From: Candidatus Chisholmbacteria bacterium
GTDB taxonomy: Bacteria > Patescibacteriota > Microgenomatia > UBA1400 > Chisholmbacteraceae
Reading direction: 5' to 3'
DNA length: 64,000 nucleotides
Assembly (NCBI GenBank): GCA_963704905.1
Contig: CAVPHZ010000002.1
Location: forward strand, 634 to 64,633
A program made the translations under genes and the position numbers. Position 1 is the first letter of the stretch. Each line of letters starts with the position of its first letter. The notes below the pieces were generated by a model. It saw only the letters and a list, made by a program, of their open reading frames with translations. It was not told where the DNA came from and did not search any database. This document shows positions 1 to 31,041 of the stretch, in pieces.

Positions 1-2
1 TC

Positions 3-509
3 CCAAAAGATGTTAAAGAACTTTCAGCACTTGCAAAAAGCGTCGGTGAGGGAGATGGTCTTTTTGAAAAAATTGATCAGCTGAATGAGAATCGTATTCC
101 CAGACTTGTCAATGAATATAATGCCATTTCAGATATGAAAAATAAAACTGTCGCCGTCCTCGGTCTTTCATTTAAACCAAATACAGACGATATGCGAGAG
201 GCTCCGAGTATGAAATTTATATCGCTACTTATCCATTTGGGAGCCAAGGTGACTGCATATGATCCTAAGGCTATGGAAGAGGCAAAAAAACATTTCAAAG
301 ATACGATTCAGTACGCAAAAGATGCCTACCAAGCGGTCAAGGACGCAGATGTATTAATATTGCTGGTTGAATGGGATGAATTTAAGCAATTAAATTTGAA
401 GAAATTAAAAAACAACATGAAAGGTAATCTATTTATAGACACCCGAAATGTATATGATCCTAAAACAATAGAAAGAGAAGGATTTAAATATATAGGGATA
501 GGAAAATGA
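3..509 (+). CDS. nucleotide-sugar 6-dehydrogenase (UDP-glucose / GDP-mannose dehydrogenase family), C-terminal portion; 5' end lies outside window
   Basis: The frame is open from the window edge with no stop between nt 3 and the first Met of the ORF-track entry. The translation ...NKTVAVLGLSFKPNTDDMREAPS...KVTAYDPKA... matches the C-terminal UDP-binding domain signature (GLxFKpnTDDxREsP) of Ugd/AlgD-type dehydrogenases. The stop overlaps the next start (ATGA at 506-509). Confidence 0.8.
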   Translation, partial: PKDVKELSALAKSVGEGDGLFEKIDQLNENRIPRLVNEYNAISDMKNKTVAVLGLSFKPNTDDMREAPSMKFISLLIHLGAKVTAYDPKAMEEAKKHFKDTIQYAKDAYQAVKDADVLILLVEWDEFKQLNLKKLKNNMKGNLFIDTRNVYDPKTIEREGFKYIGIGK

Positions 510-1411: not shown

Positions 1412-1473
1412 CCCTCAAGCGCGTGTTACACTACTGGAGAAATAAGATCATTACTTCAAAGGAGCTAGGGTAG

Positions 1474-3555: not shown

Positions 3556-4292
3556 AAAAGGTACTTCCCAAACTTATAACTGTTACCCTTGCCGTACCAG
3601 TCTACAACGAACAACAACAACTTGAGAAAAATATCAAGAAGCTGAATTCCTTCATAACGGAAAACAAATTTTCTAACTTTAGCATTCAAATAGTCATTGT
3701 TGATAATGGCTCAACTGATGACACACCCAACATCGGCAATACGCTTGAGAGAGAAATAGAAAACGTAACATATCTTCGTTTAGAGGAAAAAGGAAGAGGA
3801 CGTGCCTTAAGAGCTATTTGGATGAAAAGTGAAGCAGATATTCTATCGTACATGGACGTCGATCTTTCCGCAGACCTCGAAAGCGTGTACCCACTTCTCA
3901 GTATAGTGGCATCAAAAGATGCAGAGATTGCCATCGGCTCAAGACTTATGAAGGAGTCAGATGTAAAGGGAAGAACTCGTGCTAGAGAGATCATGTCTCG
4001 AAGTTACAATTTCTTAGTTCAGGTGCTGCTGAATGTCAAGATAAAAGATGCACAATGTGGATTTAAGGCTATACAACGAGATGCATTCCGTACAATCGAG
4101 CCTAAGATACAAAATCAGAATTGGTTTTTTGATACAGAATTGCTAGTGATTGCCAGCAAAATGGGATTGAGGATTCATGAGATACCAGTCAAATGGACAG
4201 ATGATCCAGGTTCTACTGTCAAGATTGCCAGAACTGCAATGGAAGACATCCATGGGATAATGCGATTAGTAAAGGAAAAACCATGGCTCTAA
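3552..4292 (+). CDS. GT2 glycosyltransferase, dolichyl/polyprenyl-phosphate beta-glucosyltransferase (Alg5/DPG-synthase)-like
   Basis: VTLAVPVYNEQQQL...IVIVDNGSTDDT...EEKGRGRALRAIW...DVDLSADLE...AIGSR...CGFKAIQRDAF. The start at the internal Met (3552) gives an ATGA overlap with the upstream stop; the ORF-track start at 3525 is also possible. Confidence 0.85.
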   Translation: MKKVLPKLITVTLAVPVYNEQQQLEKNIKKLNSFITENKFSNFSIQIVIVDNGSTDDTPNIGNTLEREIENVTYLRLEEKGRGRALRAIWMKSEADILSYMDVDLSADLESVYPLLSIVASKDAEIAIGSRLMKESDVKGRTRAREIMSRSYNFLVQVLLNVKIKDAQCGFKAIQRDAFRTIEPKIQNQNWFFDTELLVIASKMGLRIHEIPVKWTDDPGSTVKIARTAMEDIHGIMRLVKEKPWL

Positions 4293-5824
4293 AAGTAAAA
4301 CATGTTGTAAAGTACTGTTGCGAAAATAAATTGGAGCTTCTGATCCTCACTTCGATTTTACTCATTGCACTATTTCTCAGAACCTACAAAATAAGAGAAT
4401 TTATCATATTTTTAGGGGACGAGGGTAGAGATGCGCTTGTCGTCAGGAGAATGATTGTCGATTACAAATTTACACTTCTCGGACCTACAGCATCAGTTGG
4501 TGGATTTTACTTAGGACCAATCTACTACTATTTCATGATTCCATTCCTTTGGCTCGCTAATTTTGACCCAGTAGGGCCAGCTGTGATGGTAGCGTTACTT
4601 GGAACAATAACGGTTGCTTTGGTGTACTGGACATCGAGAGAGTGGTTCGATGTTCGTACTGCAATGATCACCTCAATGGTCTATGCGACCGCACCGGGAA
4701 TAATTCTTTCCTCTCGTTCTTCATGGAATCCAAATATTATGCCGTTCTTTGCTCTGTTGGCGGTAGTTTCTCTCTATAAAGCTGCAACAAAAAACAAACT
4801 CATGTGGACATTCATCAGTGGAGCTTCCATTGGCGTGGCAATCCAATCACATTATCTTGGACTGATACTCGGGCCGATCATTGCAGTATCCGCATTAGTG
4901 TCCTTTGAAAAAAGACATTGGGTGAAAAATACGCTTACTGGAATAGTTGGCTTTTTCACTGGAGGATCGATGTACTTTGCTTTTGAGTTTAGACACAATT
5001 TTCCAAACATCAGATCAGTTCTAGAGTTCATCGGTCGTGGAGGCAACACAACCGGCCCGAGAAGCATAAACATTGTTTGGTTATTCATCGATATGGTGAA
5101 AAGAATGTATGAGGCGGCGTTCATAACCCTTGACTTGTCAATACGAAATTGGTTGGTGTACTTGAGTATTACTGGATTACTACTAGTGCTTATCAATCGT
5201 TGGAAGAAAAAAAGGAAACTTTCGCTTGGGTTTAAACTTCTTCTTGTGTGGCTGGTTGTCGGTATTTTTGGAATTGGATCGTATAAAGGTCAACTCTATC
5301 CTCATTATTTTGGGTTTCTTCTTCCTGTTCCGGTTTTGATACTTGGAGTCTTGCTTGGTCAGTTAGTCAAGAAAAATTCGACTAAATATGTTGCATATCT
5401 GCTTGTGGGTCTACTACTGTACTTGAATCTATCAACTCTTCCCATTTGGGGCAGAGGCTCTAACTTAATTGATCAGACTGAACGGGTTGCCGAGGCGATA
5501 GGAGAAATTACAGATGATGAACCATTTAATTTTGCATTGATCTCCTCAGGAAATTCAGATCATGCATACAGATATTTCCTGGAGATTAACGGAAAGAAGC
5601 CAAGAACACTTGAAGAAGAAGTCACACAACAACTCATTGTCATTTGCGAAGAAATCGATAATCCCTGCCTTCCTCTGGGACATCCTCTTTGGGAGGTAGC
5701 TGGATTTGGGCGGGCAGAGGTTGTGCTGGAGAAATCCGTAGATCCAGGGATTAAAATAGTAAAAATGGTCCATCACGAAGATTCTAAACATCTCATCGGA
5801 AGCCCAGCACCAAAAGGAGGATGA
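4283..5824 (+). CDS. GT-C fold polytopic membrane glycosyltransferase, ArnT/PMT-like (GT83/GT39-like) paralog
   Basis: Multi-TM protein with a first-loop acidic motif (FLGDEGRDALVVRRMI) and the YxxGPIYYY stretch. It is clearly paralogous to the 7713 gene and to the pseudogene at 11461. Confidence 0.7.
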   Translation: MALKVKHVVKYCCENKLELLILTSILLIALFLRTYKIREFIIFLGDEGRDALVVRRMIVDYKFTLLGPTASVGGFYLGPIYYYFMIPFLWLANFDPVGPAVMVALLGTITVALVYWTSREWFDVRTAMITSMVYATAPGIILSSRSSWNPNIMPFFALLAVVSLYKAATKNKLMWTFISGASIGVAIQSHYLGLILGPIIAVSALVSFEKRHWVKNTLTGIVGFFTGGSMYFAFEFRHNFPNIRSVLEFIGRGGNTTGPRSINIVWLFIDMVKRMYEAAFITLDLSIRNWLVYLSITGLLLVLINRWKKKRKLSLGFKLLLVWLVVGIFGIGSYKGQLYPHYFGFLLPVPVLILGVLLGQLVKKNSTKYVAYLLVGLLLYLNLSTLPIWGRGSNLIDQTERVAEAIGEITDDEPFNFALISSGNSDHAYRYFLEINGKKPRTLEEEVTQQLIVICEEIDNPCLPLGHPLWEVAGFGRAEVVLEKSVDPGIKIVKMVHHEDSKHLIGSPAPKGG

Positions 5825-5828
5825 GATT

Positions 5829-6590
5829 ATGTTCGACAAAGCCCCCTATTTATCAGTTGTCATACCAGCTTATAACGAAAAAGCAAACTTCAAAAAAGGT
5901 GTGCTCGAGCAGGTCAATACGTATTTAAAGCAAAGAGAATACTCATTCGAAGTAATTGTAGTTGACGACGGATCAACTGACGCAACAGCAGATTTGGTAG
6001 AGAAGTGGATAGTAGGAAAAGGAAATTGGAAGTTAATTCGTAAACCGCACAAAGGCAAGGCTCCCGCAGTTACAGCAGGTATTAAAGAAGCAATAGGAGA
6101 AATAATTGTTTTTACTGATTTTGATCAAGCAACCCCAATTAGTGAAATAGAAAAACTCTTACCCTTTATGAAAAAAGGATACTCCATTGCTATCGGATCA
6201 CGTGAAGTAAAAGGAAGCAGGAGAGAAGAAGAGCCATGGCATCGACACCTCATGGGTAGAGGGTGGAACATCATCGTACAAATAGTTGCGCTTCGAGGCA
6301 TCCACGATACCCAGTGTGGATTTAAGTTATTTAAAGCAGATAGTGCCAAAAAGCTCTTTGATGGGCTTTATGTCTATAAAGATGCAATAGAGAAGGAAGC
6401 CTATACAGGTGCTTTTGATGTAGAATTGTTATACCTCGCTCAAAAAAAGGGACTTCAAATTGCTGAAGTACCAGTCCATTGGAAGCATATTGATACAGAT
6501 CGAGTAAACCCCATTCGTGACTCGGTTCGTATGTTTATTGACCTTTTAAAAATACGACTCGCAGATGTAATGGGAAAGTATGAAAAATAA
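5829..6590 (+). CDS. GT2 glycosyltransferase, polyprenyl-phosphate sugar synthase (Alg5/DPG-synthase-like)
   Basis: LSVVIPAYNEKANF...VIVVDDGSTDATADL...GKAPAVTAGI...FTDFDQATP...AIGSREVKGS...QCGFKLFKADSAKKLF. An AAAGGAGG RBS lies upstream. Confidence 0.88.
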   Translation: MFDKAPYLSVVIPAYNEKANFKKGVLEQVNTYLKQREYSFEVIVVDDGSTDATADLVEKWIVGKGNWKLIRKPHKGKAPAVTAGIKEAIGEIIVFTDFDQATPISEIEKLLPFMKKGYSIAIGSREVKGSRREEEPWHRHLMGRGWNIIVQIVALRGIHDTQCGFKLFKADSAKKLFDGLYVYKDAIEKEAYTGAFDVELLYLAQKKGLQIAEVPVHWKHIDTDRVNPIRDSVRMFIDLLKIRLADVMGKYEK

Positions 6591-7752
6591 GAGATTCTTA
6601 TTGATATTATTAGGGTATATACTAACCCTTTTTGGACTGCTGGTTTATTCATACGCCCACATCGATCTCAACCTCACACTTTCATCAAATTCTTTCTATC
6701 AAAGCTTTCAAAATCAACTCATTCAGCTTGGATACTTTAAACGGGGATTATCCACGCAGCTATTTGTAGTACTTACAACTCTTCTCTTCATACTCCAATC
6801 GATAGTTGTAGATGCCATTAGAAAAAAATATATTCGGACAAGTCACGTTCTTAAGCTAAGTATAATAGCTGCTGGGCTATTACTATTTGCGTATCCTGCT
6901 TTTTCCCATGATATCTTTAACTATATTTTCGATACGAGGTTACTCATTGAGCACAACGTTAATCCTTGGCAGTACACAGCCCTAGATTTTCCGCAGGATC
7001 TATGGACTCGATTCATGCGCTGGACTCACCGGACCTATCCATATGGACCAACATGGCTTCCCTTGACTGTCCCATTTTATCTTGCTGGGTTAGGAAAATT
7101 TACACCCACATTGTTTTGGTTCAAGTTTCTTGGTGTGCTGAGTTACCTAACCAGTGTGTGGTCGGTCAAAAACATACTTAAAATGACTAAGCCCAAGTAT
7201 CAGACGGTCGGACTGGCGCTTTTCGCATTGAATCCATTAATAATCATCGAAAGTTTAGTGACGGCTCATCTCGATGCAGTCATGGCTGCAGTCTTTTTGG
7301 CTGGGTTGGTTTTTTTACTCAATGGTAGAAATGTCTTAAGTTGGATTTTCTTACTGCTTTCAGCTGGGATGAAATATGTCACCGCCTCAGCGGTACCAGT
7401 GTGGTTATGGTGGAAAGGAAAAAAGAATAACTTCAATCAAGCGGTTATGACAATGCTTGTGTTTTCACTCGTAGCTACAGGAGTTGCAATTTATCTTCGA
7501 GAAATTCTTCCCTGGTACTTTATCACGCCGTTGGCATTACTCTCGCTCCTCCCAGAAAGGAAAGAACTCCAAGCAGCAAGTAGTATCATTTCCGCAGGTT
7601 TGCTGTTTCGTTACACACCATTTATTCTGATTGGAGAGTACACACAACAAGTCAATACCATGAGGAATGTTGGCACTGGAGTAGCTTTTCTAATTAGTAT
7701 TGCAGTATTCGTATGGATAAAAAACAAAAGCTTCTCTTCACCTTCATTATAG
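6580..7752 (+). CDS. GT-C-like polytopic membrane protein, DUF2029/GT87-like (putative polyprenyl-P-sugar-dependent glycosyltransferase)
   Basis: At least 9 predicted TM segments, with the motif block SHDIFNYIFDTRLLIEHNVNPWQYTALDFPQDLW...YPYGPTWLP. The same motif block occurs in the 47122 and 48446 genes. The family call is from memory of DUF2029 signatures. Confidence 0.55.
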   Translation: MKNKRFLLILLGYILTLFGLLVYSYAHIDLNLTLSSNSFYQSFQNQLIQLGYFKRGLSTQLFVVLTTLLFILQSIVVDAIRKKYIRTSHVLKLSIIAAGLLLFAYPAFSHDIFNYIFDTRLLIEHNVNPWQYTALDFPQDLWTRFMRWTHRTYPYGPTWLPLTVPFYLAGLGKFTPTLFWFKFLGVLSYLTSVWSVKNILKMTKPKYQTVGLALFALNPLIIIESLVTAHLDAVMAAVFLAGLVFLLNGRNVLSWIFLLLSAGMKYVTASAVPVWLWWKGKKNNFNQAVMTMLVFSLVATGVAIYLREILPWYFITPLALLSLLPERKELQAASSIISAGLLFRYTPFILIGEYTQQVNTMRNVGTGVAFLISIAVFVWIKNKSFSSPSL

Positions 7753-9080
7753 TCGTTGGATTCTTACTCCGGATTTATAAATTGAGAAGCGCAATGGGCT
7801 TTGATTACGATCAAGAGGTTGCTGCATTTGCGGTTCAAAGGATTCTATCTGGGGATTTTACTCTCATCGGTCAGGAAATTAGCATCGGTGGTGTATTTAT
7901 TGGTCCTGGATACTATTATCTGTTATCAATCTTCTATTGGTTGTTTGCTGGAGATCCGCTCGGAGCGGGAGTGATGGTTTCGCTATTCTCAGTAGCAACT
8001 ATGGTATTACTATTCTCCGTCTCTCGTAGTCTCACAAATATAGAAACAGCATTCATCGCGCTCACGCTCTTTGCTACTAGCAGTAAAATCATCTTCTTTG
8101 ACAGAACCACAGCTCCATCAAATCTCTTGATGCTCTCAGCATTACTCGTGCTATTTATTCTTATTCAAATTAAAAAGTATGGATCAAAACTAGTTCCACT
8201 ACTCAGTCTCATCCTCAGTGGGGCAGTTATTCATATTCACCCGACTGCTATTACTCTCGCACCAATAATATTTTTCCTTTGGCGGTTATGGAAATTGGCA
8301 AAACCAAATCCAAGTCAGATTCTCATGACAATGATAGCTGCGCTTCTTCCTCTTTCACCACTTATCATTTTTGACCTAAAGAATAACTTTCTCAACTTAA
8401 GAGGAGTCTTCCATGCGACAGGCATCCATGGCAGCGAAGCTTACTTCTTTCTATTAAAGTTTCTTCTACTGGTACGGATACAGATTGAGAACCTTGCCTC
8501 GCTATTTCCTTTCGGGAATTTAAACCTACTCATTGCAATTTCCTTTGTGTTCATATTCATACGATATTCAAAAAAAGAAAATCGACAACTATTGGTGGGA
8601 TGGGTGCTGATGTCAACCATGACACTCAGCTTCTACACAAGACATGTTCCAGAATATTACCTGCTCCCGTCTTTACCTGCTTTGCTAATTATCGCTGCAG
8701 TAGCGATAAGATTAATAATCAAAACGTTACCTAATAAAGTCATCTTGACCGCATTCCTCTCAATAGTTCTGTGGAACGGCTACCTTTCACTTTTGACTGA
8801 TAATCCGTACAGCCTATTGTACCGTCAGCAAACTGTCGACTATATTAAAACAGCCCAAAAAGAGGATGTGTATGTTTCCTTTGACACAGATTATGGACTA
8901 GAATCAGGATTTCATTATTTACTGAAGGTCAATGATGTTAAAATAGCCGATAAAGATCATATACCCTCTCACACGATTATCATGCCTCCAGATAGAAGAA
9001 TCGCAAAGAATAGGGAAGTTACATTCGGTGGTATAAAAGTGATAGAAAATATAGAGAGAACCTCAATAAATCATGAGTAG
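7713..9080 (+). CDS. GT-C fold membrane glycosyltransferase, ArnT/PMT-like paralog
   Basis: FDYDQEVAAFAVQRILSGDFTLIGQEISIGGVFIGPGYYYLLSIFYWLFAGDPLGAGVMV aligns residue-by-residue with the 4283 protein and with pseudogene 11461. Confidence 0.7.
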   Translation: MDKKQKLLFTFIIVVGFLLRIYKLRSAMGFDYDQEVAAFAVQRILSGDFTLIGQEISIGGVFIGPGYYYLLSIFYWLFAGDPLGAGVMVSLFSVATMVLLFSVSRSLTNIETAFIALTLFATSSKIIFFDRTTAPSNLLMLSALLVLFILIQIKKYGSKLVPLLSLILSGAVIHIHPTAITLAPIIFFLWRLWKLAKPNPSQILMTMIAALLPLSPLIIFDLKNNFLNLRGVFHATGIHGSEAYFFLLKFLLLVRIQIENLASLFPFGNLNLLIAISFVFIFIRYSKKENRQLLVGWVLMSTMTLSFYTRHVPEYYLLPSLPALLIIAAVAIRLIIKTLPNKVILTAFLSIVLWNGYLSLLTDNPYSLLYRQQTVDYIKTAQKEDVYVSFDTDYGLESGFHYLLKVNDVKIADKDHIPSHTIIMPPDRRIAKNREVTFGGIKVIENIERTSINHE

Positions 9081-10596
9081 AATTGCACAGATCTCACTAG
9101 TTTTGTTGATGAGTATAAAACTCTTTATCCTATACTGGGAAGATTCAGCGAAATTTTCACAACAAGTGCATGTGGAGTCTAGTTCCTCACTTACTGATTT
9201 CGAAGTCCTAAGTCAAGTGAACTATTATCAGTTCAAATTCAGGCCTCAATCGACTCAACAGATTACTGTAAACATTCCACCTAGATATGGATTGAATTTG
9301 TATGTTGATGGAGTTAAAACCAATTATCAAGACAAGAAGTCTCAAATAAGTTTTGAGGTCCCAAAAAGGGAATGGGGAAGGTCAAACGTCGTGATAAGGA
9401 ATGAGTCACCGCTTGAAATTTGGATCGACTTGTTGATCGCAATATCAGTAATAGCAATGATATTTTCAGTCTCGAATCAGAAACAAAAAAATGCAGTCGC
9501 AGTACTCCTCCTTTCCTTTTCAGTTGTATATATTAGCGTATATATTTCACTGCATTTTGGAAAAATCTTTGAAAAAACTAACATAAATAAATACGCAGAT
9601 TTATACCAAAGGTCACAGTACGTTATGGGTCAAGGTGCAGATGAGATTGTTGAAGATGAAGTTGTATATACACTTGCCGGGTACCACTACGCAGTTGATG
9701 GAGCTGATCCGACTTCCATTGATTTTGAACATCCACCTTTAGCTAAGTATATGTACGGATATGCAATACGACTGTTTGATCGTGCTCACCTAGCAAGCAT
9801 GGGAACGTACATACTATTAGTCGGTATATTTTTCATAGTTTCTCGACTAGTGTTAAGAGATCAGTTGCTCTACGCTAGCGCAGTTGCTTTGTTTGCCGTA
9901 GAAAAAGAGACTTTATCGTTAATGCGTTCTGCGACCTTAGATCTGCCACTCACATTATTTTTACTATCAACTTATTTGTTTTACTTACTCTTAGAGAAGA
10001 AGAAAAATTTTGCTCTGATACTTCTGATGGGAGTTGGTTTGGGCTTTTCAATGGCAGCAAAAATTTATTTTACAGCTATCATCTTTTTCCTAATTATTGT
10101 ATTAGATATGCTTTTAAATAATAAAAAGATATTAAAGTACTCTATTCCAATAATTCTCGTGGCTGTAGCAATCTATACTCTCACTTATGCAGCCTTTTTA
10201 AAAGACCATTCCTTTTCTGAATTTATAAATTTTCAAAAATGGATGCTCTCATGGTTCAAAGGTAAACCTGATACAAAAGGTATTGGAGCAATCTTCTCAA
10301 CCTTATTCATAGGCAGAATTAAGGCATGGTGGGATTTTGAAACAGGAAATATTATCCGTATAACGAACTGGAGCCCATTCTGGAGTCTATATGGAGCATC
10401 TACTATGATTGGAGCTTTAAAGTTCTTGAGAACAAAAAAGTATCATATAATATACATCTGGCCAGTGGTCTACTTACTATTTTTAAGTCTGGGTGCATCT
10501 GGACCGAATTTACTTGTAGTCTTGTTCCCATTTTTTGTGCTGAACTATGTACTACTAGTATCAATTATCTCAAAACATTTTAGCAATAACCCATGA
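9073..10596 (+). CDS. protein O-mannosyltransferase-like GT-C (PMT family, GT39-like) with extra N-terminal ~130-aa domain
   Basis: First-loop acidic motif GADEIVEDE and the canonical PMT/ArnT HPPLAKY motif, followed by multiple TM helices. The N-terminus carries a signal-anchor and a beta-rich segment not seen in the other paralogs. Confidence 0.72.
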   Translation: MSRIAQISLVLLMSIKLFILYWEDSAKFSQQVHVESSSSLTDFEVLSQVNYYQFKFRPQSTQQITVNIPPRYGLNLYVDGVKTNYQDKKSQISFEVPKREWGRSNVVIRNESPLEIWIDLLIAISVIAMIFSVSNQKQKNAVAVLLLSFSVVYISVYISLHFGKIFEKTNINKYADLYQRSQYVMGQGADEIVEDEVVYTLAGYHYAVDGADPTSIDFEHPPLAKYMYGYAIRLFDRAHLASMGTYILLVGIFFIVSRLVLRDQLLYASAVALFAVEKETLSLMRSATLDLPLTLFLLSTYLFYLLLEKKKNFALILLMGVGLGFSMAAKIYFTAIIFFLIIVLDMLLNNKKILKYSIPIILVAVAIYTLTYAAFLKDHSFSEFINFQKWMLSWFKGKPDTKGIGAIFSTLFIGRIKAWWDFETGNIIRITNWSPFWSLYGASTMIGALKFLRTKKYHIIYIWPVVYLLFLSLGASGPNLLVVLFPFFVLNYVLLVSIISKHFSNNP

Positions 10597-11483
10597 GGAG
10601 TATGAACATATCAACCACTTGTTATGTGTGCAGTCAGAGAAGAGTAAAAAAAGCCTTTGATAAGTTAGGTTGGACCATTTTGAGGTGCAGCGCCTGTGGA
10701 CTCTACAGCTTGAAATTTGAAGGTTCGTACGAAAAGTTCATTAAAGAGTACTACAACAAAAAGTTTTTTACTGGAAGCAACGAAAGAGCAGGGTATTTCG
10801 ACTACGAAGGTGACAAAGAAGCTGAAAGGCGAAATATGAATTCATATCTTGAGGGCATTCGATCATCAGTGAAAAAAGGCACACTTCTTGATGTAGGCTG
10901 TGCAACCGGACTTTTTATGATCGAGGCTGAAAAAGCAGGTTTTGAGGTGTATGGTGTAGATGTTTCAAAATACGCGATCGATATTGCCAAAAAACGTTTC
11001 AAAAACAAAGTCAAACAATCAAGTATCGAACAGGCTCACTTCAAAAAGAATACCTTTGATGTCATCACGCTCTTTGACGTCATTGAGCATGTAAGCAAGC
11101 CAAGAACAGTGCTTAAAAAGCTTCGCTCTCTACTTATGGACAATGGGCTATTAGTGATAAATACTGGTGATACTGGAAGCCTGTTTGCTAAGATGCAAGG
11201 CTCGTATTGGCATTTTTTTATCCCACCACAACATTTTTTCTATTTCAGCAAAAGTACATTAAGCAAACTTCTTTCGCAGGAAGGATTTGAAGTTCTTCGA
11301 GTTGAACACAAGGGGAAATGGGTGAGTCTTCGGTACCTTTTTCATCTCGCCCGACAAATTCAAAATGATATATTTGGAAAAATCGGCTTCTCTTTGGTTG
11401 GAAATAATGCCATTGGTAAGATACCGGTGTACCTTAATTTATTTGATAACATGACGGTATATGCCAAAAAAACTAACACGTAA
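10593..11483 (+). CDS. class I SAM-dependent methyltransferase with N-terminal CxxC...CxxC zinc ribbon
   Basis: CYVCSQ...CSACG zinc ribbon, then SAM motif I LLDVGCATGLF, EVYGVDVS and motif post-II FDVITLFDVIEHV. Start and stop overlap as ATGA. Confidence 0.85.
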   Translation: MRSMNISTTCYVCSQRRVKKAFDKLGWTILRCSACGLYSLKFEGSYEKFIKEYYNKKFFTGSNERAGYFDYEGDKEAERRNMNSYLEGIRSSVKKGTLLDVGCATGLFMIEAEKAGFEVYGVDVSKYAIDIAKKRFKNKVKQSSIEQAHFKKNTFDVITLFDVIEHVSKPRTVLKKLRSLLMDNGLLVINTGDTGSLFAKMQGSYWHFFIPPQHFFYFSKSTLSKLLSQEGFEVLRVEHKGKWVSLRYLFHLARQIQNDIFGKIGFSLVGNNAIGKIPVYLNLFDNMTVYAKKTNT

Positions 11484-12662
11484 GAGGAAAAAAAGCACAG
11501 GGAAATGGAGCAAGTCACATGTCTTATTGCTTATCTTCATCTCGATCATAGGCTTGGCACTCCGTTTAGGACCAGTTTTTCGCGATACTGTTCACTTCAG
11601 CTACGATCAAGGAGTCGATCTCGCGCTGGTTCGCACGCTAATCAATGACCATAAACTCAGCCTTATTGGTCGCTTCACAGGATTACAAGGTGTCTTCATG
11701 GGACCATATTGGACATTTGCATTAGCCATTCCCTATGTCATCAGTGGAGGAAATCCGGCAGCGAGTGTTATCGTTTTTTTCGCTTCTGGGAGTAGTTGCT
11801 ATATGGATTACTTACTCGATTGTCAGGAAATGTTAGATGAAAGGGTTGATCTATCGTGCTTTATATGTTGCTATTTCGAATCCTTTCGTCAGCGCGTGCT
11901 CACGTTGTTCTTTCACCCAGCCCTCTTCTCTACCTTATGATATTTTATATTTGGTTTCTATGGGAATTCGTCAAAATAAAAACCTGAGAGTTCTTCCCCT
12001 CCTTGCGTTGCTCATCAGTTTCTTTTTTCAACTGGAAATCGGTTTTGCCCTCTTTTTCTTACCAGCGACATTCATTGTGATTGTATCCTTTAAGGCTTTT
12101 CGGAAACTTACTTTAAAGCACCTCGGTATTGGTTAGTTGGTTTTTTCCTTCCTTTTCTACCTCAAGTACTTTTTGAACTTCGCCACGACTTTCTGATGAC
12201 AAATTCAGTATTGCGTTTACTCTCCGGAGAAAATACTAGCCTAGGAATTCAAGGCACAGGTCTGCTAGCCCGATTTAGCATACGAGCCGGATACATTATG
12301 GGAAGATTACGTGTCATCAGTGAGTTGGATCGGAAATAATTTACTAGCCACTCTCTTCATCACAGTACCTGCGATCTATGGAATTCAGGCTAAACTTAAA
12401 AATAACAGATGAAAAACTTCATCATCATGCTGTTCTAATCATCCTAACTATGTATGTGGGTTTTGCACTCTATCCCGCACCGGTGTGGGTGTGGTATCGA
12501 GCTGGTGTGCCAATTGTCTTTGTACTTCTTATTGCTATTGGCTGGACCAAGCTTATGGATGAAAACATATATGGAATAAGTTTAACGTCATTTTATTTTA
12601 CTGGACTTGTGCTGGTTAACATTAATCCAGTCATTCTAATATCACAATTTATTCGACATTGA
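11461..12662 (+). pseudogene. decayed ArnT/PMT-like GT-C paralog (multiple frameshifts, truncated)
   Basis: ORF 11461..11940 matches the N-terminus of the 7713/4283 family (FSYDQGVDLALVRTLINDHKLSLIGRFTGLQGVFMGPYWTFALAIPYVISGGNPAASVIVFFASGSS), then degenerates. A second frame (11837..12136) continues the homology (LPLLALLISFFFQLEIGFALFFLPATFIVIVSF versus 7713 VPLLSLILSGAVIHIHPTAITLAPIIFFLWRLW). A third fragment (12378..12662) is hydrophobic. The total remnant is shorter than intact paralogs. Confidence 0.7.
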
Positions 12663-13035
12663 GCAGTGGTGTTTCTTCTTGAAGAGCCAAAAACAGGCAA
12701 TTGACTCATCATGAAGGATGGTGGTGGGGATAAACTACGATCTTTACGTATATACTCCGCCAGTTTACACGTATGTTTGGGATCACATGATCTATTGGTA
12801 TGCAAGAGAACAGTTATGATAATCTACCAAATGATTATGGATATAGAGATCTCCAGAGGCTGAATAATTTTTATTTATTAATCGAACCAGATGACAATAC
12901 AAGACAGAATTGACGGATGGAAAGGTAACTTTACCAGTGAAGGTCAATCTACTCAAACCTGGCATCTCAACAGTGGCATAACCATAGAAAAATGGGAAGC
13001 AAATTCAAAGACAACTGAAGAGATACGCTAATCAC
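12663..13035 (+). promoter_or_regulatory. only sizeable non-coding gap in the window; presumed promoter/5' leader for the downstream YfhO-like operon
   Basis: About 370 nt without a convincing ORF, AT-rich, sitting between a pseudogene and a run of ATGA-coupled genes. No confident -35/-10 pair could be picked out by eye. Confidence 0.3.
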
Positions 13036-15342
13036 ATGAACAGGAAACATATAGTCCTGCTATTGGCATTTTTTATTTTTATTCCATTTATTATTTATTG
13101 GAAAATTCCACTCTTAGGTCTCATTCCATTTCCCGGAGATCTCCTAGTAGGAAGATTTTTTCCATTCAATTCTGTGGAGTGGCTAGGGTATCCAAATGGC
13201 GTGCCGTATAAAGAATTCATCAACGCTGATGTAGTCAGACAGCTCTATCCATGGAGAAATCTAGCCATCACTACGCTTAAAAGCGGTCAACTCCCAGGAT
13301 GGAATCCTTATGCATTTTCAGGAAATCCTCTTCTTGCAAATATTCAATCGGCCGCATTTTATCCCTTAAATATTCTCTATTGGTTGATGAGCCATCAATC
13401 AGCGTGGATCGTTGGAGTTCTTCTCCAACCCATACTAGCAATGATCTTTATGTATATGTTTACCAAAGAGTTAAAGTTCTCGTCACCAGCGTCAATTCTA
13501 TCAAGCCTAGCATTTGCCTTCAGTGGGTATATGGTAGTCTGGTGGGAGTTTAATACTGTTGGTCATGCTGCACTTTGGGCTCCACTTATATTGTGGGCTA
13601 TTGAGCGATTTAAACAATCGAAGCACTCGAAATATCTCATAGTCATATCATTTGCACTTTCAGCATCTTTGCTGGCTGGACATCTCCAGACCTCGATCTA
13701 TGTGACGATCATCTCAATCACTTATGCCGCCTTTCGGTTATCACAAGAAGAAAGACGATCTCTGCTTGCAGTCAAACTAATAATTGCTATGACAACAAGC
13801 ATTCTCATTGCTTTTCCACAGTTGCTACCAGCCTTGAAATTTGCTCCACTCACGCCAAGAGGTACACAACCGGATGCTGAAATCTTCATGCAGTTTAGAA
13901 TACCTCTCGAAAATCTCATAACATTCTTATCTCACGACTACTTTGGAAATCCAGCGGTAAACAACTTCTGGGGAAAAGATTATGGAGAATTCATGGCATA
14001 TTTTGGAGTCATCGCATTTATCATGAGTCTCTTTGCACTGCAAAACAATGATAGAAAAACCAAGTATTTTTTCGTTATAGCTGGTCTTGCGCTCATCTCA
14101 GCTCTAAAAACACCACTTCCTCTTCTACTTCATAAAATGAACATTCCAGTTCTCTCAACAAGTGCACCATCTCGAGCTGTATTTATCGTTCACTTTGCAG
14201 CAAGTGTGCTGGCTGGGTATGGTTTTGATGCTTGGAAAAAATACAATATCAATAATATAAAGAAAACTCTAATTCTGGTGGTGCTGATCTTTGCAGCTGC
14301 GTGGATTGTCGCGTTCATTGGATCTTTAAGTTCAGATCTAGCGCATTCAGCGCAATGGAAAGTCTCGCTGAGAAATCTCATCATCCCAACCGGCATTGCT
14401 ATAGCACTATCCGCACTCACGGTTATAAAAGATCATGACTATGTTAGGTCATTCAAATATATTTGGAAGCCGAGCCTCATTGTGTTGTTTTCTTTAGTCA
14501 TTGGAGAATATGTGTATTTTGCCAACAAATATCAGACTTTTTCCGAACCACAATTTTTCTTTCCCAAATCACCAGTCTACGAATATTTGCGAAACGAAAC
14601 TCGGGAGATACCCTATCGATTTTTCGGGGATTACACCGCTTCTGTCACTAGTAATTCTTGGTTACCTTATAATGTATATGGTGTAGAAGGCTATGATGGG
14701 CTTTACTTAAGACGTTATGGTGAGTTATTGATATCTTCACATGAAGGGAAAATACCGGTATCAGTACCAAGATCAGATGCGAACCTTAAAACAAACAGTG
14801 ACGATGTACGACGTAGACGCTTGCAGGACCTTTTAGGAGTGAAGTTCATTCTTGATAAAAATGATTATCCGCAGAGTGATTGGGATCCAGATCCGGTGCG
14901 CTTTCCGGAGGATCGCTATCAACTCATCTGGCAAAAAGGAAAGTTTAAAGTATATGAGAATCTGCAGGTCTTCCCAAGGGCATATCTAGTATCGAATTAT
15001 CTGGTAGAAAAAGAACCTCAAAATATTATTGATATCATTTTCAATGAGAACATCGATCTAACAAAAACCTTGGTTTTAGAAGAAGATATTAAAAAAACAT
15101 TAGAGGCTTCTGAAGGATTAGTACAATTTCAGACCTATGCTCCCAACATCATTGAGCTAGTTGTGGATACCCCAACGCAGCAATTGTTATTCCTTTCAGA
15201 CTCTTTCCATCCAGATTGGCAGGCTTTTGTCGATCAAGATGAGGTGGAAGTCTATAGAGCAGATTATGCATTTAGAGCTATCCTCATTCCTTCAGGGCAG
15301 CATAAAATTAAATTTACGTACAAACCGACCTTTCTTAGATGA
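13036..15342 (+). CDS. YfhO-family GT-C membrane glycosyltransferase
   Basis: YfhO N-terminal loop signature ...LPGWNPYAFSGNPLLANIQSAAFYPLNILYW, many TM segments, and a C-terminal extracytoplasmic domain with FHPDWQAFVDQDEVEVYRADYAFRAILIPSGQHKIKFTYKP. Confidence 0.85.
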   Translation: MNRKHIVLLLAFFIFIPFIIYWKIPLLGLIPFPGDLLVGRFFPFNSVEWLGYPNGVPYKEFINADVVRQLYPWRNLAITTLKSGQLPGWNPYAFSGNPLLANIQSAAFYPLNILYWLMSHQSAWIVGVLLQPILAMIFMYMFTKELKFSSPASILSSLAFAFSGYMVVWWEFNTVGHAALWAPLILWAIERFKQSKHSKYLIVISFALSASLLAGHLQTSIYVTIISITYAAFRLSQEERRSLLAVKLIIAMTTSILIAFPQLLPALKFAPLTPRGTQPDAEIFMQFRIPLENLITFLSHDYFGNPAVNNFWGKDYGEFMAYFGVIAFIMSLFALQNNDRKTKYFFVIAGLALISALKTPLPLLLHKMNIPVLSTSAPSRAVFIVHFAASVLAGYGFDAWKKYNINNIKKTLILVVLIFAAAWIVAFIGSLSSDLAHSAQWKVSLRNLIIPTGIAIALSALTVIKDHDYVRSFKYIWKPSLIVLFSLVIGEYVYFANKYQTFSEPQFFFPKSPVYEYLRNETREIPYRFFGDYTASVTSNSWLPYNVYGVEGYDGLYLRRYGELLISSHEGKIPVSVPRSDANLKTNSDDVRRRRLQDLLGVKFILDKNDYPQSDWDPDPVRFPEDRYQLIWQKGKFKVYENLQVFPRAYLVSNYLVEKEPQNIIDIIFNENIDLTKTLVLEEDIKKTLEASEGLVQFQTYAPNIIELVVDTPTQQLLFLSDSFHPDWQAFVDQDEVEVYRADYAFRAILIPSGQHKIKFTYKPTFLR

Positions 15343-17702
15343 AGCCAAAGATTAATAAATTATTCCCACTTGGAATTGTGTTCCTTTTTTCTTGCCTGAT
15401 CTTTTGGAAATCAATTGTTTATGGATTAGTGCCTATTCCATTCGATCAACTAGTGACCGGTTTTTTTCCATATAACAATGGTGGATGGACTCAAGTGGGT
15501 GCATTTCCACAACCAAAAGGTGGTTGGTATGCAGTCGATGCCATCCGTCAAATGTACCCTTGGAAAGAATTAGTGATCGATCAACTAAAGAATGGACAGA
15601 TTCCTCTTTGGAATCCATATAATTTTTCCGGATATCCTTTGCTTGCAAATATCCAATCTGCAGTCTTCTACCCGCTCAACTTAGTCTTTCTTATCCCATC
15701 TTTTCCCTGGTCTTGGACTGCGTACATTGCGCTTGCTGTACTGCTACCTGCGTACTTTATGTTTCATTTCCTCAGATCATTGGATCGATCACCATTGGCA
15801 TCAGTAATTAGTGCGATTGCATTTGCAGGAGCTGGGCAAATGATTGACTGGCTCGAGTGGGGGGTGATCACTCACACATTCATTTGGCTTCCGCTGTCAC
15901 TATATTCGATAAACAGATTCACACAGAAAAAAGATAAGAAATACTTATTACTCTTTATCTTTAGCATCATCTCAGCGATCTTTTCAGGATATCCACAAAG
16001 AGCTGCCTACAGTCTTATTGTTATTGTATTGTGGATTTTCATGAAATGGAGATCTCAAAAAAAATCTTCAATGAAACATCTAGTACCGATTTCCATGGCA
16101 TTCCTGCTCGCAATCAGCATGACAGCTGTGCAGTGGATTCCGACCGCTGAGTTTTACTTTCATTCGGCTATGCGGGGAGAAGTATCTGAACAGTTAAGCG
16201 AAAGAGGGGGTCTTCCTTGGCAGCAACTGGCAACTATTTTTGCTCCCGATTACTTTGGAAATCGGGTCACCAATAACTATTGGGCCAAAGACTTTGGAAA
16301 CATCGATTACATGGATGCTGATTTGTACATAGGGGCATCAGTAATTCCACTCATACTCTTAGCAATCTTTAGCCTCAAAAATAATAAACATATAAAATTT
16401 CTCACAATTCTGACCGTCATTGGCTTGCTGCTAGGTATCCGTAGTCCAATCTCAGGTATCGTCTCAGGTCTTGGAATTCCAGTGATCAGCACAGGCGTTG
16501 CCTCAGAGGCACTTATTATCACAGTTTTCTCTCTGGCTGCGCTCGCTGCATTTGGTTTTGATGATTTAAAAAGTGAAATCAGTTTTAAAAGACGATTAAC
16601 CTCAATTACAATAACCGGCGCAATCTATGCTCTTTTAATCTTTATGAGTCTCACATTTGATCAGGATAAAACAAGAACTGCATTACGAAATCTCGTTGTA
16701 CCAGGCACAGCTTTTCTTGGTGGAGCCGGTGCAATGATTGTCTTTATCAAGTTCAAGAAATCAACAATCCCGGCATTGCTGTTTATCGGATTCCTCTCAG
16801 TTGAACTACTGTTCCACTCAAATAAGATGCTTTCATTCTCTTCTCCAAACTTAGCGTATCCAGAACACATCCTCTTCAGTGAATTAAATAGCATTGCTGG
16901 CAATGATCGTGTTGCAGGATTTTGGGAAACTGAGATCTCTCCAAATATTCAAACCGCTGTGAGGATGAATTCAATTGAAGGATACGATCCTCTCTACATT
17001 TTACGTTACGGGGAGTTTATAAGTTCAGCTCAACAAGGAAGGTTAGAAAAGATAATTCCTAGGTCCGACGCAGATCTTGAACAGAAAAATGAGCAGAATC
17101 GCAACCGTGTTCTTGACTTAACCAGCGTAAAATATATACCTGCTAAAGTCACCAAATCTGATGAACTTTGGGAGCAAGAACCATTGAAGTACAATCCGCA
17201 GCGTTTCAAACTCGTCTGGCTGCAGGATCGTTTCAAGATCTATGAAAATCTTCACGCTCTCCCGAGAGTCAAGCTCTATTCAGATTGGGAGGTTATAGAA
17301 AGCGATGAGCAGATCATCGAAAAACTCTACGATCCAACCTTCAATCCTCAATCAACAGTAATTCTTGAACACCAGCCCCTACTTAAAGGTTCCGAACCTT
17401 TAAACGGAAAAGTAAGGATAACCTCATATGAACCGAATCGTGTTGATATTGAATCACAGTCAAATATACCAGCAATTCTTCTCCTCACAGATTCTTATTA
17501 TCCTGGCTGGAAAGCCACGGTTGATGAGAAACCTGTAGATATACTTCGTGCCAATTACACTTTTCGTGCGATTGAAGTTCCAGAAGGGAATCATAATATT
17601 ACTTTCAGTTATCAGCCAATTAGCTTCAAAGTCGGGTCCTTAATAAGTATTGTAAGTACTATTGTTGTAAGCGGACTAATCTACACTAAGAAAATATTAT
17701 GA
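15339..17702 (+). CDS. YfhO-family GT-C membrane glycosyltransferase (tandem paralog)
   Basis: IPLWNPYNFSGYPLLANIQSAVFYPLNLVFL and C-terminal YYPGWKATVDEKPVDILRANYTFRAIEVPEGNHNITFSYQP. ATGA coupling to the upstream paralog. Confidence 0.85.
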   Translation: MKPKINKLFPLGIVFLFSCLIFWKSIVYGLVPIPFDQLVTGFFPYNNGGWTQVGAFPQPKGGWYAVDAIRQMYPWKELVIDQLKNGQIPLWNPYNFSGYPLLANIQSAVFYPLNLVFLIPSFPWSWTAYIALAVLLPAYFMFHFLRSLDRSPLASVISAIAFAGAGQMIDWLEWGVITHTFIWLPLSLYSINRFTQKKDKKYLLLFIFSIISAIFSGYPQRAAYSLIVIVLWIFMKWRSQKKSSMKHLVPISMAFLLAISMTAVQWIPTAEFYFHSAMRGEVSEQLSERGGLPWQQLATIFAPDYFGNRVTNNYWAKDFGNIDYMDADLYIGASVIPLILLAIFSLKNNKHIKFLTILTVIGLLLGIRSPISGIVSGLGIPVISTGVASEALIITVFSLAALAAFGFDDLKSEISFKRRLTSITITGAIYALLIFMSLTFDQDKTRTALRNLVVPGTAFLGGAGAMIVFIKFKKSTIPALLFIGFLSVELLFHSNKMLSFSSPNLAYPEHILFSELNSIAGNDRVAGFWETEISPNIQTAVRMNSIEGYDPLYILRYGEFISSAQQGRLEKIIPRSDADLEQKNEQNRNRVLDLTSVKYIPAKVTKSDELWEQEPLKYNPQRFKLVWLQDRFKIYENLHALPRVKLYSDWEVIESDEQIIEKLYDPTFNPQSTVILEHQPLLKGSEPLNGKVRITSYEPNRVDIESQSNIPAILLLTDSYYPGWKATVDEKPVDILRANYTFRAIEVPEGNHNITFSYQPISFKVGSLISIVSTIVVSGLIYTKKIL

Positions 17703-18337
17703 TGATCACTGATTTGTACAAGAAATATTCCATTCCAACAAATCTCCAACAGCATATGTTTCGTGTCGCTGCATTGGGAAACATTATTTGCGATCATCTA
17801 AGAAATATTCAAGCAGATAAAGATATCATTACTCAAATGCTGTTACTTCATGACATGGGGAATATTCTCAAATTCGATTTTTCGAATCTAGATTTATTTG
17901 ATGAGGAGGACAAAAGCCAGATCGATAAATACAGAAAAGCTCAGCACGAATTTAAAAAGAAATACGGTAATCATCCAGATGAAGCGACGGTAAGTATCAT
18001 TGAGGAAACTGCATCAAATTCGAAAGTGTTAGAACTTTATAAAAATAGCCATTGGGAAAATGCTAAGGATTTTGTGAATTCAGAACATTGGGACAGAAAA
18101 ATTGCCTGCTACAGCGACATGAGAATTGGACCGTTTGGAATATTGAGTCTCAAAGAGAGATTTGACAATCTCATCAGCCGCCGACCGGAAACAAAACAAA
18201 GACTTAACGAGCTCTACTCAGACGGTAAAAAATTAGAGAAACAATTACAAGATACAACCACAAATAATCTTCTTACAATTGATGATGAAATACTCAATAA
18301 GAGATTTCAGTATCTTCAACATTTAAATATTAGCTAA
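17699..18337 (+). CDS. HD-domain metal-dependent phosphohydrolase
   Basis: H...HMFRVAALGNII...LLLHDMGN is the HD-superfamily H...HD motif. The predicted protein is soluble. ATGA-coupled to the preceding YfhO gene. Confidence 0.7.
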   Translation: MMITDLYKKYSIPTNLQQHMFRVAALGNIICDHLRNIQADKDIITQMLLLHDMGNILKFDFSNLDLFDEEDKSQIDKYRKAQHEFKKKYGNHPDEATVSIIEETASNSKVLELYKNSHWENAKDFVNSEHWDRKIACYSDMRIGPFGILSLKERFDNLISRRPETKQRLNELYSDGKKLEKQLQDTTTNNLLTIDDEILNKRFQYLQHLNIS

Positions 18338-18435
18338 GTGCTCTCACGACTCACTATACTAGCCCTTCGAAAAAGAACAGCAAACAACTTCAGAGGAGAA
18401 CAGATGATAGAATTGACCGAGATGAGATATTTTCT

Positions 18436-25449: not shown

Positions 25450-25461
25450 ATTCAACACTTT

Positions 25462-31007: not shown

Positions 31008-31041
31008 ATTTAGCCGGCTCACTTCGCTACAATAGCGACCG

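What the first reader, a model, noticed from the sequence alone, without database searches (positions are those of the whole stretch)
11461..13035. Decayed ArnT/PMT-like paralog followed by the only long non-coding gap: evidence of gene birth-and-death in the island
Three successive ORF fragments in different frames (11461..11940, 11837..12136, 12378..12662) are collinear with the intact 7713 and 4283 proteins but are truncated overall, and they are followed by about 370 nt of non-coding DNA. Elsewhere the genes are packed with overlaps, so this locus stands out as a relaxed or decaying segment. It may also hold the promoter for the downstream YfhO operon. Together with the frameshifted GT2 and the split YfhO, it points to rapid turnover of paralogs.
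Basis: seen in the sequence. Interest (0 to 1): 0.5.

Follow-up and report, generated by a model that had tools for sequence, protein, structure and literature searches.

The report
Frameshift-riddled membrane glycosyltransferase gene, no gap
The three ORF fragments and the supposed 370-nt non-coding gap are one full-length copy of a conserved membrane glycosyltransferase gene, broken by about a dozen single-base frame shifts: an ordinary pseudogene, or possibly an assembly artefact.

Summary
Window 11461..13031 is a single 523-codon gene for a GT-C-fold (Pfam PMT_2, ArnT-like) membrane glycosyltransferase. It sits where Candidatus Chisholmbacteria and related genomes carry an intact 509-536 aa gene, between a SAM methyltransferase and a YfhO gene. 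Alignment that allows frame shifts follows intact homologues end to end at about 52% identity. It needs at least 9, and more likely 11-15, frame changes of one base.

The "370 nt of non-coding DNA" (12663..13031) encodes the C-terminal soluble domain in several frame pieces, with up to 64% identity to homologues. The gene ends 4 nt before the YfhO start codon, so there is no gap. There is also no promoter or terminator excess and no Rfam match.

The damage is almost all indels. There is at most one in-frame stop on the best path. The repaired protein keeps 108 of 114 family-invariant residues, which is within the range of intact homologues. Its length is 1571 nt against 1572 nt in the orthologue.

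This fits a very young pseudogene (about 55%) or a local consensus error or strain mixture (about 35-40%). Reads are needed to decide. Interest is low.

The parts
11461..13031 (+). Whole disrupted gene: 523 codons plus TAA after frame repair. It is a GT-C / PMT_2-type membrane glycosyltransferase and the positional orthologue of P0001 (523 aa, Cand. Chisholmbacteria).
   Evidence: homologues cover 96-99% of the reconstruction (best E=3.5e-142), with about 52% identity after frame repair. One search shows the synteny.
11461..11772 (+). Frame piece 1 (coordinate mod 3 = 1), native N-terminus, residues 1-104. It includes the invariant first-loop motif Y-D-Q-G-V-D at 11602..11619. The start overlaps the methyltransferase gene by 23 nt.
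   Evidence: 62.5% identity to P0001 over 88 aa.
11773..11773 (+). Frame change 1 (+1), at the edge of a T7 run (11774-11780). This is the only junction beside a long homopolymer.
11774..11896 (+). Frame piece in mod 3 = 2. It contains a 12-nt excursion into mod 3 = 1 (ATG TTA GAT GAA = MLDE, 11830..11841) that matches the family's MLSE. This implies a -1/+1 indel pair around 11828-11842. Read straight through, the frame hits TAG at 11834.
   Evidence: plus direct reading of the sequence.
11898..11972 (+). Frame piece in mod 3 = 0 (AHVVLSPSPLLYLMIFYIWFLWEFV), flanked by frame changes at about 11897 and about 11966-11972.
   Evidence: This piece also matches the 7713 protein at residues 163-197.
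11972..12106 (+). Frame piece in mod 3 = 2, containing the invariant FFQxEIGFA. The frame change to mod 3 = 1 lies somewhere in 12103-12148. TAG at 12134 is avoided if the change is placed early.
12106..12291 (+). Frame piece in mod 3 = 1 (LPQVLFELRHDFLMT...). Frame change at 12292.
   Evidence: (56-60% identity over 50 aa).
12293..12406 (+). Frame piece in mod 3 = 2 (TLWEDY...). The frame change lies in 12388-12407, near an A5 run.
12408..12656 (+). Frame piece in mod 3 = 0 (…PVWVWYRAGVPIVF…). The frame change lies in 12644-12656.
12663..13031 (+). The supposed non-coding gap. It is the C-terminal soluble alpha/beta domain of the same protein, in pieces 12655-12705 (mod 3 = 1), 12705-12734 (mod 3 = 0, or TGA at 12712 if read straight through), 12736-12813 (mod 3 = 1, YDLYVYTPPVYTYVWDHM), 12815-12895 (mod 3 = 2, FYLLIEPDD) and 12897-13031 (mod 3 = 0, RIDGWKGNF…EKW…*).
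   Evidence: Domain architecture comes from the AlphaFold model of P0001 (residues 411-518).
10593..11483 (+). Intact upstream SAM-dependent methyltransferase, the first member of the conserved three-gene order.
   Evidence: 64.5% identity to the Chisholmbacteria orthologue. Synteny.
13036..15342 (+). Intact downstream YfhO-family GT-C gene. It starts 4 nt after the stop of the disrupted gene.
   Evidence: 54% identity to the 769-aa Chisholmbacteria YfhO.

Best explanation
Window 11461..13031 is one full-length gene, not three fragments plus a spacer. It is the positional orthologue of a conserved 509-536 aa integral-membrane glycosyltransferase of the GT-C fold (Pfam PMT_2, ArnT-like architecture). 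The protein has about 11-12 transmembrane helices, an invariant acidic YDQGxD motif in the first outside loop, and a C-terminal soluble domain. By analogy with ArnT, PMT and YfhO systems, such an enzyme would transfer a sugar from a polyprenyl-phosphate-sugar donor, made by the island's GT2/GtrA enzymes, to a cell-envelope acceptor.

In this genome the reading frame is broken by at least 9, and most likely 11-15, insertions or deletions of one base, with at most one nonsense codon. Translation from the native ATG gives only 104 native residues plus a 55-residue out-of-frame tail, so the gene as written is dead.

The inactivation is therefore evolutionarily very recent: a young unitary pseudogene decaying mainly through small indels. 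The locus has no separate regulatory role. The YfhO genes downstream are most likely still transcribed from upstream, as in relatives where the two genes overlap.

Shown: gene identity, orthology, the frame map, absence of a gap, and absence of excess substitutions. Inferred: the biochemical activity, that the indels are biological, and the transcription pattern.
For: - Intact homologues cover 96-99% of the repaired protein. Best E=3.5e-142, and all 22 hits are 464-536 aa.
- Alignment allowing frame shifts gives 13-15 frame changes at penalty 14 and a stable 9 at penalties 20-32. Nine intact neighbouring genes gave none, apart from one 3'-end case in the epimerase gene.
- Gene order matches Chisholmbacteria genomes, where the orthologue lies between the methyltransferase and a YfhO gene and overlaps that YfhO gene by 4 nt.
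- All 7 GTDB loci carry contiguous intact matches.
- The repaired protein keeps 108/114 columns that are invariant in 11 intact homologues. Intact homologues tested the same way keep 88-99%.
- Identity to the orthologue is 52%, against 47-68% for the flanking genes.
- Only 1-3 of 13 junctions lie beside a homopolymer of 5 or more bases, so this is not the classic homopolymer sequencing error.
- All frame changes fall inside the gene, and both neighbours are intact.
- An independent k-mer assembly (Logan) of run ERR12037370 calls the split YfhO paralogue as 380 + 380 aa genes at positions that map to the same window coordinates. At least one frame shift in this island is therefore present in the reads.
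- The AlphaFold model of the orthologue (pLDDT 86.4) matches ArnT (TM 0.58), ALG12, AglB/STT3/PglB, AftA and Pmt4.
Against: - The damage is unusually rich in indels. With at most 6 lost invariant columns and at most 1 stop, simulation limits substitutions since inactivation to about 60 or fewer. That implies an indel:substitution ratio of at least 0.15-0.4, several times the roughly 0.1 I recall from bacterial mutation-accumulation studies (the comparison figure is from my own knowledge).
- No multi-base deletions are seen and the length is conserved to within 1 nt, which is unlike the deletion bias typical of bacterial pseudogenes.
- No independent contig covering 10769..12907 could be recovered. 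Logan contigs end at about 10769 and restart at about 12907, roughly 10 nt after the last frame junction.
- Four frame-shifted genes in the first 30 kb, none with a clear nonsense mutation, would be many for a streamlined genome of the candidate phyla radiation.
- The sequencing technology of the source assembly is unknown.
Confidence: 0.55

Rival explanations
1. The gene is intact in the organism, and the frame shifts are local consensus errors. For example, this could be a stretch of low or strain-mixed coverage in a long-read or hybrid metagenome assembly that polishing did not fix. There would then be no biological pseudogene.
For: - The signature is indels only: every family-invariant residue class is retained at the level of intact homologues, there are 0-1 stops, and the length is 1571 against 1572 nt.
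- Frame changes cluster in 11773..12896, while about 62 kb around them carries only three single frame shifts.
- The independent Logan assembly of the same run has no contig with the 159-aa or 94-aa fragment products. Its contigs break at about 10769 and about 12907.
- The gene is intact and conserved in all relatives.
- The source contig is 508,777 bp, while the k-mer assembly of the run gives 2-11 kb contigs. That would fit a long-read assembly (inference).
Against: - The cluster lies entirely inside one gene and spares both neighbours. An error patch has no reason to respect gene borders.
- Most junctions are not in homopolymers.
- The YfhO frame shift at about 29012 is reproduced by the independent assembly, so frame shifts in this genome are not generally artefacts.
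- Logan contigs also break inside intact genes (7652, 8616, 10769), so the breaks near the locus are not specific to it.
Confidence: 0.37
2. One reading: an old, decaying, truncated redundant paralogue of the 7713/4283 genes, followed by a true intergenic spacer that carries the promoter of the YfhO operon, as part of birth-and-death turnover of paralogues.
For: - The gene does belong to the same superfamily as the 7713 protein (hhalign probability 99.4%).
- The island carries an extra PMT_2-like gene (9073..10596) that is absent from the Chisholmbacteria gene order.
- Other frame-shifted genes are present in the island.
Against: - The gene is full length and orthologous, not paralogous, to a conserved gene in conserved gene order.
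- The 'spacer' is coding sequence of the same gene.
- No excess substitutions are detectable.
- Promoter- and terminator-like sites are at chance level and there is no Rfam family match.
- The extra gene 9073..10596 is only remotely related (hhalign probability 8%), so it is not an obvious replacement copy.
Confidence: 0.04
3. The frame shifts are biological but were produced together, or are tolerated. One possibility is a single burst of +/-1 indels from an error-prone repair tract. Another is that the gene is still expressed through some recoding or editing mechanism.
For: Only the oddity of the pattern itself: many +/-1 indels within 1.1 kb, no detectable substitution decay, and exact length conservation.
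Against: - No known bacterial recoding system handles about a dozen shifts in both directions at unrelated sequence contexts (my own knowledge).
- No shared motif is evident at the junctions.
- No structured RNA was detected.
- This is speculation without any direct support.
Confidence: 0.03

Closest known systems
Uncharacterised PMT_2 (PF13231) GT-C glycosyltransferase of Candidatus Chisholmbacteria (P0001, 523 aa; GCA_001816955.1 contig MHCM01000003.1, between a methyltransferase and YfhO)
   Same: Same position in the gene cluster and same length (1572 against 1571 nt). About 52% amino-acid identity after frame repair. The same invariant motifs are present (YDQGxD, FFQxEIGFA, PQxLFExRHDF, WYRAG, YVYTPPxYTYVWD, LIEPD, RIxGWKGNF).
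   Different: The window copy carries 9-15 frame changes and cannot make the protein. The function of the family itself is untested.
ArnT (GT83; PDB 5F15/5EZM), the undecaprenyl-phosphate-L-Ara4N:lipid A transferase
   Same: GT-C fold. Foldseek gives TM 0.58/0.56 over nearly the whole model, with a similar size (about 540 aa) and a periplasmic C-terminal domain.
   Different: Only 11-12% identity in the structural alignment. A profile search of all PDB sequences found nothing at E<=1. Donor and acceptor are unknown. It is not an ArnT orthologue.
Protein O-mannosyltransferases (GT39, Pmt1/2/4), the source of the Pfam PMT/PMT_2 models
   Same: The intact orthologues have a PMT_2 domain hit (34.5-39.9 bits against a cut-off of 26.1), and the fold matches Pmt4.
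   Different: No other Pfam domain, MIR included, was reported for these proteins. The proteins are shorter, and the structural match to Pmt1/2/4 covers only the N-terminal module (TM 0.31-0.45). The repaired window protein scores 24.7 bits, just below the cut-off.
Young bacterial pseudogenes inactivated by small indels, as described in recently host-restricted bacteria (my own knowledge, not tested here)
   Same: Full-length homology, retained gene order, multiple frame-shifting indels, and little sequence divergence.
   Different: Here about a dozen single-base indels are seen with no clear nonsense mutation and no larger deletion. Most are outside homopolymers, and the organism is known only from a metagenome assembly, so an artefact cannot be excluded.

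Membership tests
GT-C glycosyltransferase superfamily / Pfam PMT_2 (PF13231) | Significant match to the PMT_2 profile above the gathering score | tested here: inconclusive
   The repaired window protein scores 24.7 bits against a cut-off of 26.1 (E=3.1e-5). The intact orthologues P0001 and P0003 score 39.9 and 34.5 bits, which pass. The uncorrected 159-aa ORF has no hit.
GT-C glycosyltransferase superfamily / Pfam PMT_2 (PF13231) | GT-C fold: a multi-helix membrane core that superposes on solved GT-C enzymes | tested here: met
   AlphaFold model of orthologue P0001, pLDDT 86.4 and pTM 0.85. Foldseek gives 26 PDB hits at E<=1e-3, all GT-C: ALG12, ArnT (TM 0.58), AglB/STT3/PglB, AftA, Pmt4 and Emb. 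This was tested on the orthologue and is inferred for the window copy at about 52% identity.
GT-C glycosyltransferase superfamily / Pfam PMT_2 (PF13231) | Conserved acidic motif in the first extracytoplasmic loop | tested here: met
   Y48-D49-Q50-G51-V52-D53 (11602..11619). D49, Q50, G51 and D53 are invariant in all 13 aligned sequences. In the model the motif lies directly after the first transmembrane helix (H18-40). A catalytic role is inferred by analogy.
ArnT (GT83) orthologue | Sequence-level homology to ArnT | tested here: not met
   A profile of 13 family members found no PDB chain at E<=1, ArnT included. The similarity is structural only.
Protein O-mannosyltransferase (GT39) | PMT core plus luminal MIR domain | tested here: not met
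   Only PMT_2 is reported by Pfam at E<=0.1 and no MIR domain appears. The structural match to Pmt1/2/4 is limited to about 265-277 aligned columns for most entries.
Unitary pseudogene | Full-length homology to an intact gene in conserved gene order | tested here: met
Unitary pseudogene | Reading frame disrupted so that no functional product can be made | tested here: met
   At least 9 frame changes at all penalties tried. The longest ORF is 159 aa, of which 104 aa are native.
Unitary pseudogene | Signs of relaxed constraint (excess substitutions, loss of conserved residues, nonsense codons) | tested here: not met
   108/114 invariant columns are kept, within the intact range of 88-99%. There are 0-1 stops on the best path. 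Identity is in line with the neighbouring genes.
Unitary pseudogene | Disruptions verified in the underlying reads or an independent assembly | not testable with these tools
   No Logan contig was recovered for window 10769..12907.

The most novel reading that the evidence does not exclude
The roughly one dozen +/-1 frame changes are real and arose without accompanying substitutions. That would point to an indel-specific mutational burst confined to about 1.1 kb, such as one error-prone repair tract, or to a mutation spectrum in this candidate-phyla-radiation lineage that is dominated by non-homopolymer single-base indels. At the extreme, it would point to a gene still decoded despite the shifts.
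Probability: 0.04. Interest if true: 0.6.

Novelty: new member of a known kind. Interest (0 to 1): 0.15.

Why it matters
The finding matters mainly as a correction. It shows that this island has no long non-coding spacer, and that what looked like three gene remnants plus a gap is one orthologous gene with many small indels.

If the indels are real, this lineage has just lost one member of a conserved methyltransferase / GT-C / YfhO envelope-glycosylation trio. Its decay pattern would then say something about the mutation spectrum of Patescibacteria.

If the indels are errors, the locus is a useful flag for local consensus quality in the source assembly and for over-calling of pseudogenes in metagenome-assembled genomes.

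Tried and rejected
- **Paralogues inside the window as templates.** They match only the first ~100 residues. External homologues were needed.
- **Promoter and terminator scan, and Rfam, on 11300..13300.** Both at chance level or with no family match.
- **The extra gene 9073..10596 as a replacement copy.** hhalign probability is only 8%, so this was rejected.
- **Co-loss of the adjacent 844-aa YfhO seen in Chisholmbacteria as proof of real decay.** More distant relatives (L010-L013) also lack that type and go straight to a 769-type YfhO. Its absence here may be ancestral, so this was not used.
- **Exact look-ups of the fragment products in independent assemblies.** The 159-aa and 94-aa fragments, the methyltransferase, the epimerase, the 60-aa GT2 fragment, the 380-aa YfhO fragment and the GDP-mannose dehydratase are not on record.
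- **Cluster look-ups.** They show only the source contig (508,777 bp) and do not index the Logan copies.
- **Literature search for the run accession** to learn the sequencing technology. Nothing useful was found.
- **PDB sequence search with the family profile.** No hit.
- **Homopolymer explanation of the shifts.** Only 1-3 of 13 junctions fit it.
- **JGI metagenome contig scan.** Not run. The protein search had already shown no relative above about 50% identity in any collection.
Full report
**The observation.** A tiling of long ORFs shows that the whole 64-kb window is packed with + strand genes. 11.9-13.0 kb is the only stretch without a long ORF. The N-terminal fragment resembles the 7713 and 4283 proteins (E=1.6e-8 and 3.5e-7). 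Beyond about 100 residues the in-window paralogues give no useful signal.

**What the locus is.** Reading the three frames by eye showed coding-like peptides continuing through the supposed gap. A rough concatenation of these pieces, searched against the 5.8-billion-protein collection, returned 22 intact proteins of 464-536 aa. They cover 96-99% of the query, with a best E of 3.5e-142. The top hit comes from a Candidatus Chisholmbacteria genome, and most hits carry Pfam PMT_2.

I wrote a protein-to-DNA alignment that allows frame shifts (BLOSUM62, affine gaps, explicit frame-shift penalty).
- Against P0001, P0003 and P0004 it runs from about 11455 to about 13010.
- It shows 264-277 identities in 504-519 aligned residues, about 52%.
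- It needs 13-15 frame changes and 0-1 stops.
- When the frame-shift penalty is raised from 14 to 20, 26 or 32, the count settles at 9 frame changes plus 2-3 stops.
- The same procedure on nine intact neighbouring genes against their Chisholmbacteria orthologues gave no frame changes. The one exception is a 3'-end case in the epimerase gene near 1372.

One of the 'stops' (TAG 11834) is clearly a -1/+1 pair. The intervening 12 nt read ATG TTA GAT GAA = MLDE, against the family's MLSE. The firm minimum is therefore about 11 small indels.

Joining the 14 frame pieces gives a 523-residue protein with no internal stop, ending in TAA at 13029..13031. This is 4 nt before the YfhO ATG at 13036.

**The 'gap'.** Positions 12663..13031 encode the last ~120 residues.
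- tblastn alone finds 12679..12813 at 58-60% identity to P0001/P0003 (E about 1e-17 to 1e-18).
- It finds 12815..12895 at 57-64% identity.
- It finds the frame-0 tail running to 13010.
- These pieces hold the family's most conserved C-terminal motifs: YVYTPPVYTYVWDHM, FYLLIEPDD and RIDGWKGNF.

No non-coding spacer exists. Promoter-like and terminator-like matches in 11300..13300 are at shuffle level (6 against 5.7 +/- 2.7, and 2 against 1.5 +/- 1.2). Rfam gives only sub-threshold chance hits.

**Orthology and context.**
- In two Chisholmbacteria assemblies the gene order is: UDP-glucose dehydrogenase, epimerase, GDP-mannose dehydratase, GT2/GtrA, GT2, PMT_2, GT2, GT87, PMT_2, methyltransferase, PMT_2 (523 aa), then YfhO genes. 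This matches the window gene for gene, and the 523-aa gene sits exactly where the disrupted locus lies. Flanking orthologues are 47-68% identical.
- In relatives the gene's stop overlaps the YfhO start by 4 nt.
- A scan of GTDB species representatives found seven loci. All have contiguous intact matches of 1.46-1.59 kb, and all are preceded by the methyltransferase and followed by a YfhO gene.
- The locus is therefore a positional orthologue of a conserved gene, not a spare paralogue. It is a paralogue of the 7713 protein at superfamily level (hhalign probability 99.4%).
- The extra gene 9073..10596, which is absent from the Chisholmbacteria order, is only remotely related (probability 8%).

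**Family.**
- Pfam PMT_2 is above threshold for the intact orthologues (34.5-39.9 bits). It is just below threshold for the repaired window protein (24.7 against 26.1).
- No PDB chain matches the family profile by sequence.
- An AlphaFold model of P0001 (pLDDT 86.4) shows a multi-helix membrane core and a C-terminal alpha/beta domain.
- Foldseek matches only GT-C enzymes at E<=1e-3: ALG12, ArnT (TM 0.58), AglB/STT3/PglB, AftA, Pmt4 and Emb.
- 'ArnT/PMT-like' is correct for the fold and superfamily, but the gene is not an ArnT or PMT orthologue.
- The whole window is a glycosylation island with many GT-C, GT2 and GT4 genes. The presumed chemistry, transfer from a polyprenyl-phosphate sugar, rests on established knowledge of GT-C enzymes and was not tested here.

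**Nature of the damage.**
- The repaired protein keeps 108 of 114 columns that are invariant among 11 intact homologues (94.7%). Intact homologues tested leave-one-out keep 88-99%.
- Its identity to the orthologue is in the range of its intact neighbours.
- Its length is 1571 nt against 1572 nt.
- Simulated neutral substitutions show that at most 6 lost invariant columns together with at most 1 stop become unlikely beyond about 60 substitutions, or 4%. That implies an indel:substitution ratio of at least 0.15-0.4.
- Only one junction is beside a homopolymer of 7 bases, and one or two are beside runs of 5.

The gene was therefore under selection until very recently, or it is still intact in the organism.

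**Real or artefact?**

For real:
- All frame changes lie inside the gene and both neighbours are intact.
- Most junctions are not homopolymeric.
- An independent k-mer assembly (Logan) of run ERR12037370 calls the split YfhO paralogue as 380 + 380 aa genes at positions that map to the same window coordinates. That frame shift is therefore in the reads.

For artefact:
- The spectrum is almost all indels and the length is preserved.
- The shifts cluster within 1.1 kb.
- Three further single frame shifts occur in the first 30 kb, with no clear nonsense mutation anywhere.
- No independent contig covers window 10769..12907. Logan contigs map to 4142-7652, 8616-10769, 12907-23574 and 23666-31677. 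However, those contigs also break inside intact genes.

The platform of the source assembly (contig of 508,777 bp) could not be established. I put about 55% on a genuine young pseudogene and about 37% on a consensus or strain-mixture artefact.

**Verdict.** This is an ordinary kind of feature, a new member of a known kind, and of low interest. The only mild oddity is the indel-only pattern, which read mapping would resolve.

Noticed in passing
window 2445..3555 (junction about 2609-2611): The GT2/GtrA fusion gene (376 aa in Chisholmbacteria, 68% identical, the best conserved gene of the island) is split by a single frame change after codon 55. This leaves a 60-aa ORF and a 298-aa ORF. The junction is not in a homopolymer.
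   Followed up: partly
window 27872..30153 (junction about 29011-29014): A YfhO paralogue is split into two 380-aa ORFs by one frame change. The independent Logan assembly of run ERR12037370 + 380 aa genes at the matching positions, so this frame shift is present in the reads.
   Followed up: partly
window 506..1449 (junction about 1372): The C-terminal ~29 residues of the epimerase orthologue continue in another frame (1363..1449, 59% identity, E=1.2e-6). The 301-aa ORF appears to carry a frame shift near its 3' end.
   Followed up: partly
window 9073..10596: An extra 507-aa PMT_2-like membrane protein lies between the 455-aa PMT_2 gene and the methyltransferase. The Chisholmbacteria loci have no counterpart there (only a 97-nt spacer). 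Its PMT_2 region sits unusually far from the N-terminus (residues 220-368).
   Followed up: partly
window 13036..17702 compared with L002 11569..18957: Chisholmbacteria and L007/L008 have three YfhO genes after the GT-C gene, the first being 844 aa. The window has only the orthologues of the second and third. More distant relatives (L010-L013) also lack the 844-aa type, so whether this is a gain or a loss is unclear.
   Followed up: partly
window 1..64000: The entire window is essentially one + strand glycosylation super-island. It holds about 20 GT-C-type membrane glycosyltransferases (PMT_2, YfhO, GT87, PTPS_related, PIG-V-like), many GT2 and GT4 genes, sugar-nucleotide enzymes and methyltransferases, with genes mostly overlapping.
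   Followed up: partly
window 31742..32548 (- strand): This is the only sizeable minus-strand ORF in the tiling. It matches the island's methyltransferase family (32392..32099, 33% identity to the Chisholmbacteria methyltransferase) and overlaps the stop-to-stop extents of its + strand neighbours.
   Followed up: no
window 22889..25446, 32411..36140, 48434..49930: Five large ORFs (342-689 aa) in the island have no Pfam match at E<=1e-3.
   Followed up: no
L010, L012, L013 (GTDB contigs CAYMQI010000008.1, CAYHYP010000009.1, CAYJLJ010000017.1): Genomes labelled 'uncultured Pseudomonadales/Gammaproteobacteria' carry the same methyltransferase / GT-C / YfhO order, with 34-37% identical homologues. 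This may reflect mislabelled or contaminated bins, or a wider distribution of the trio.
   Followed up: no
L009 compared with L002: The contigs from 'RIFCSPHIGHO2_01_FULL_52_32' (L009) and GCA_001816955.1 (L002) encode 100% identical proteins across this locus. They represent the same population assembled twice.
   Followed up: no
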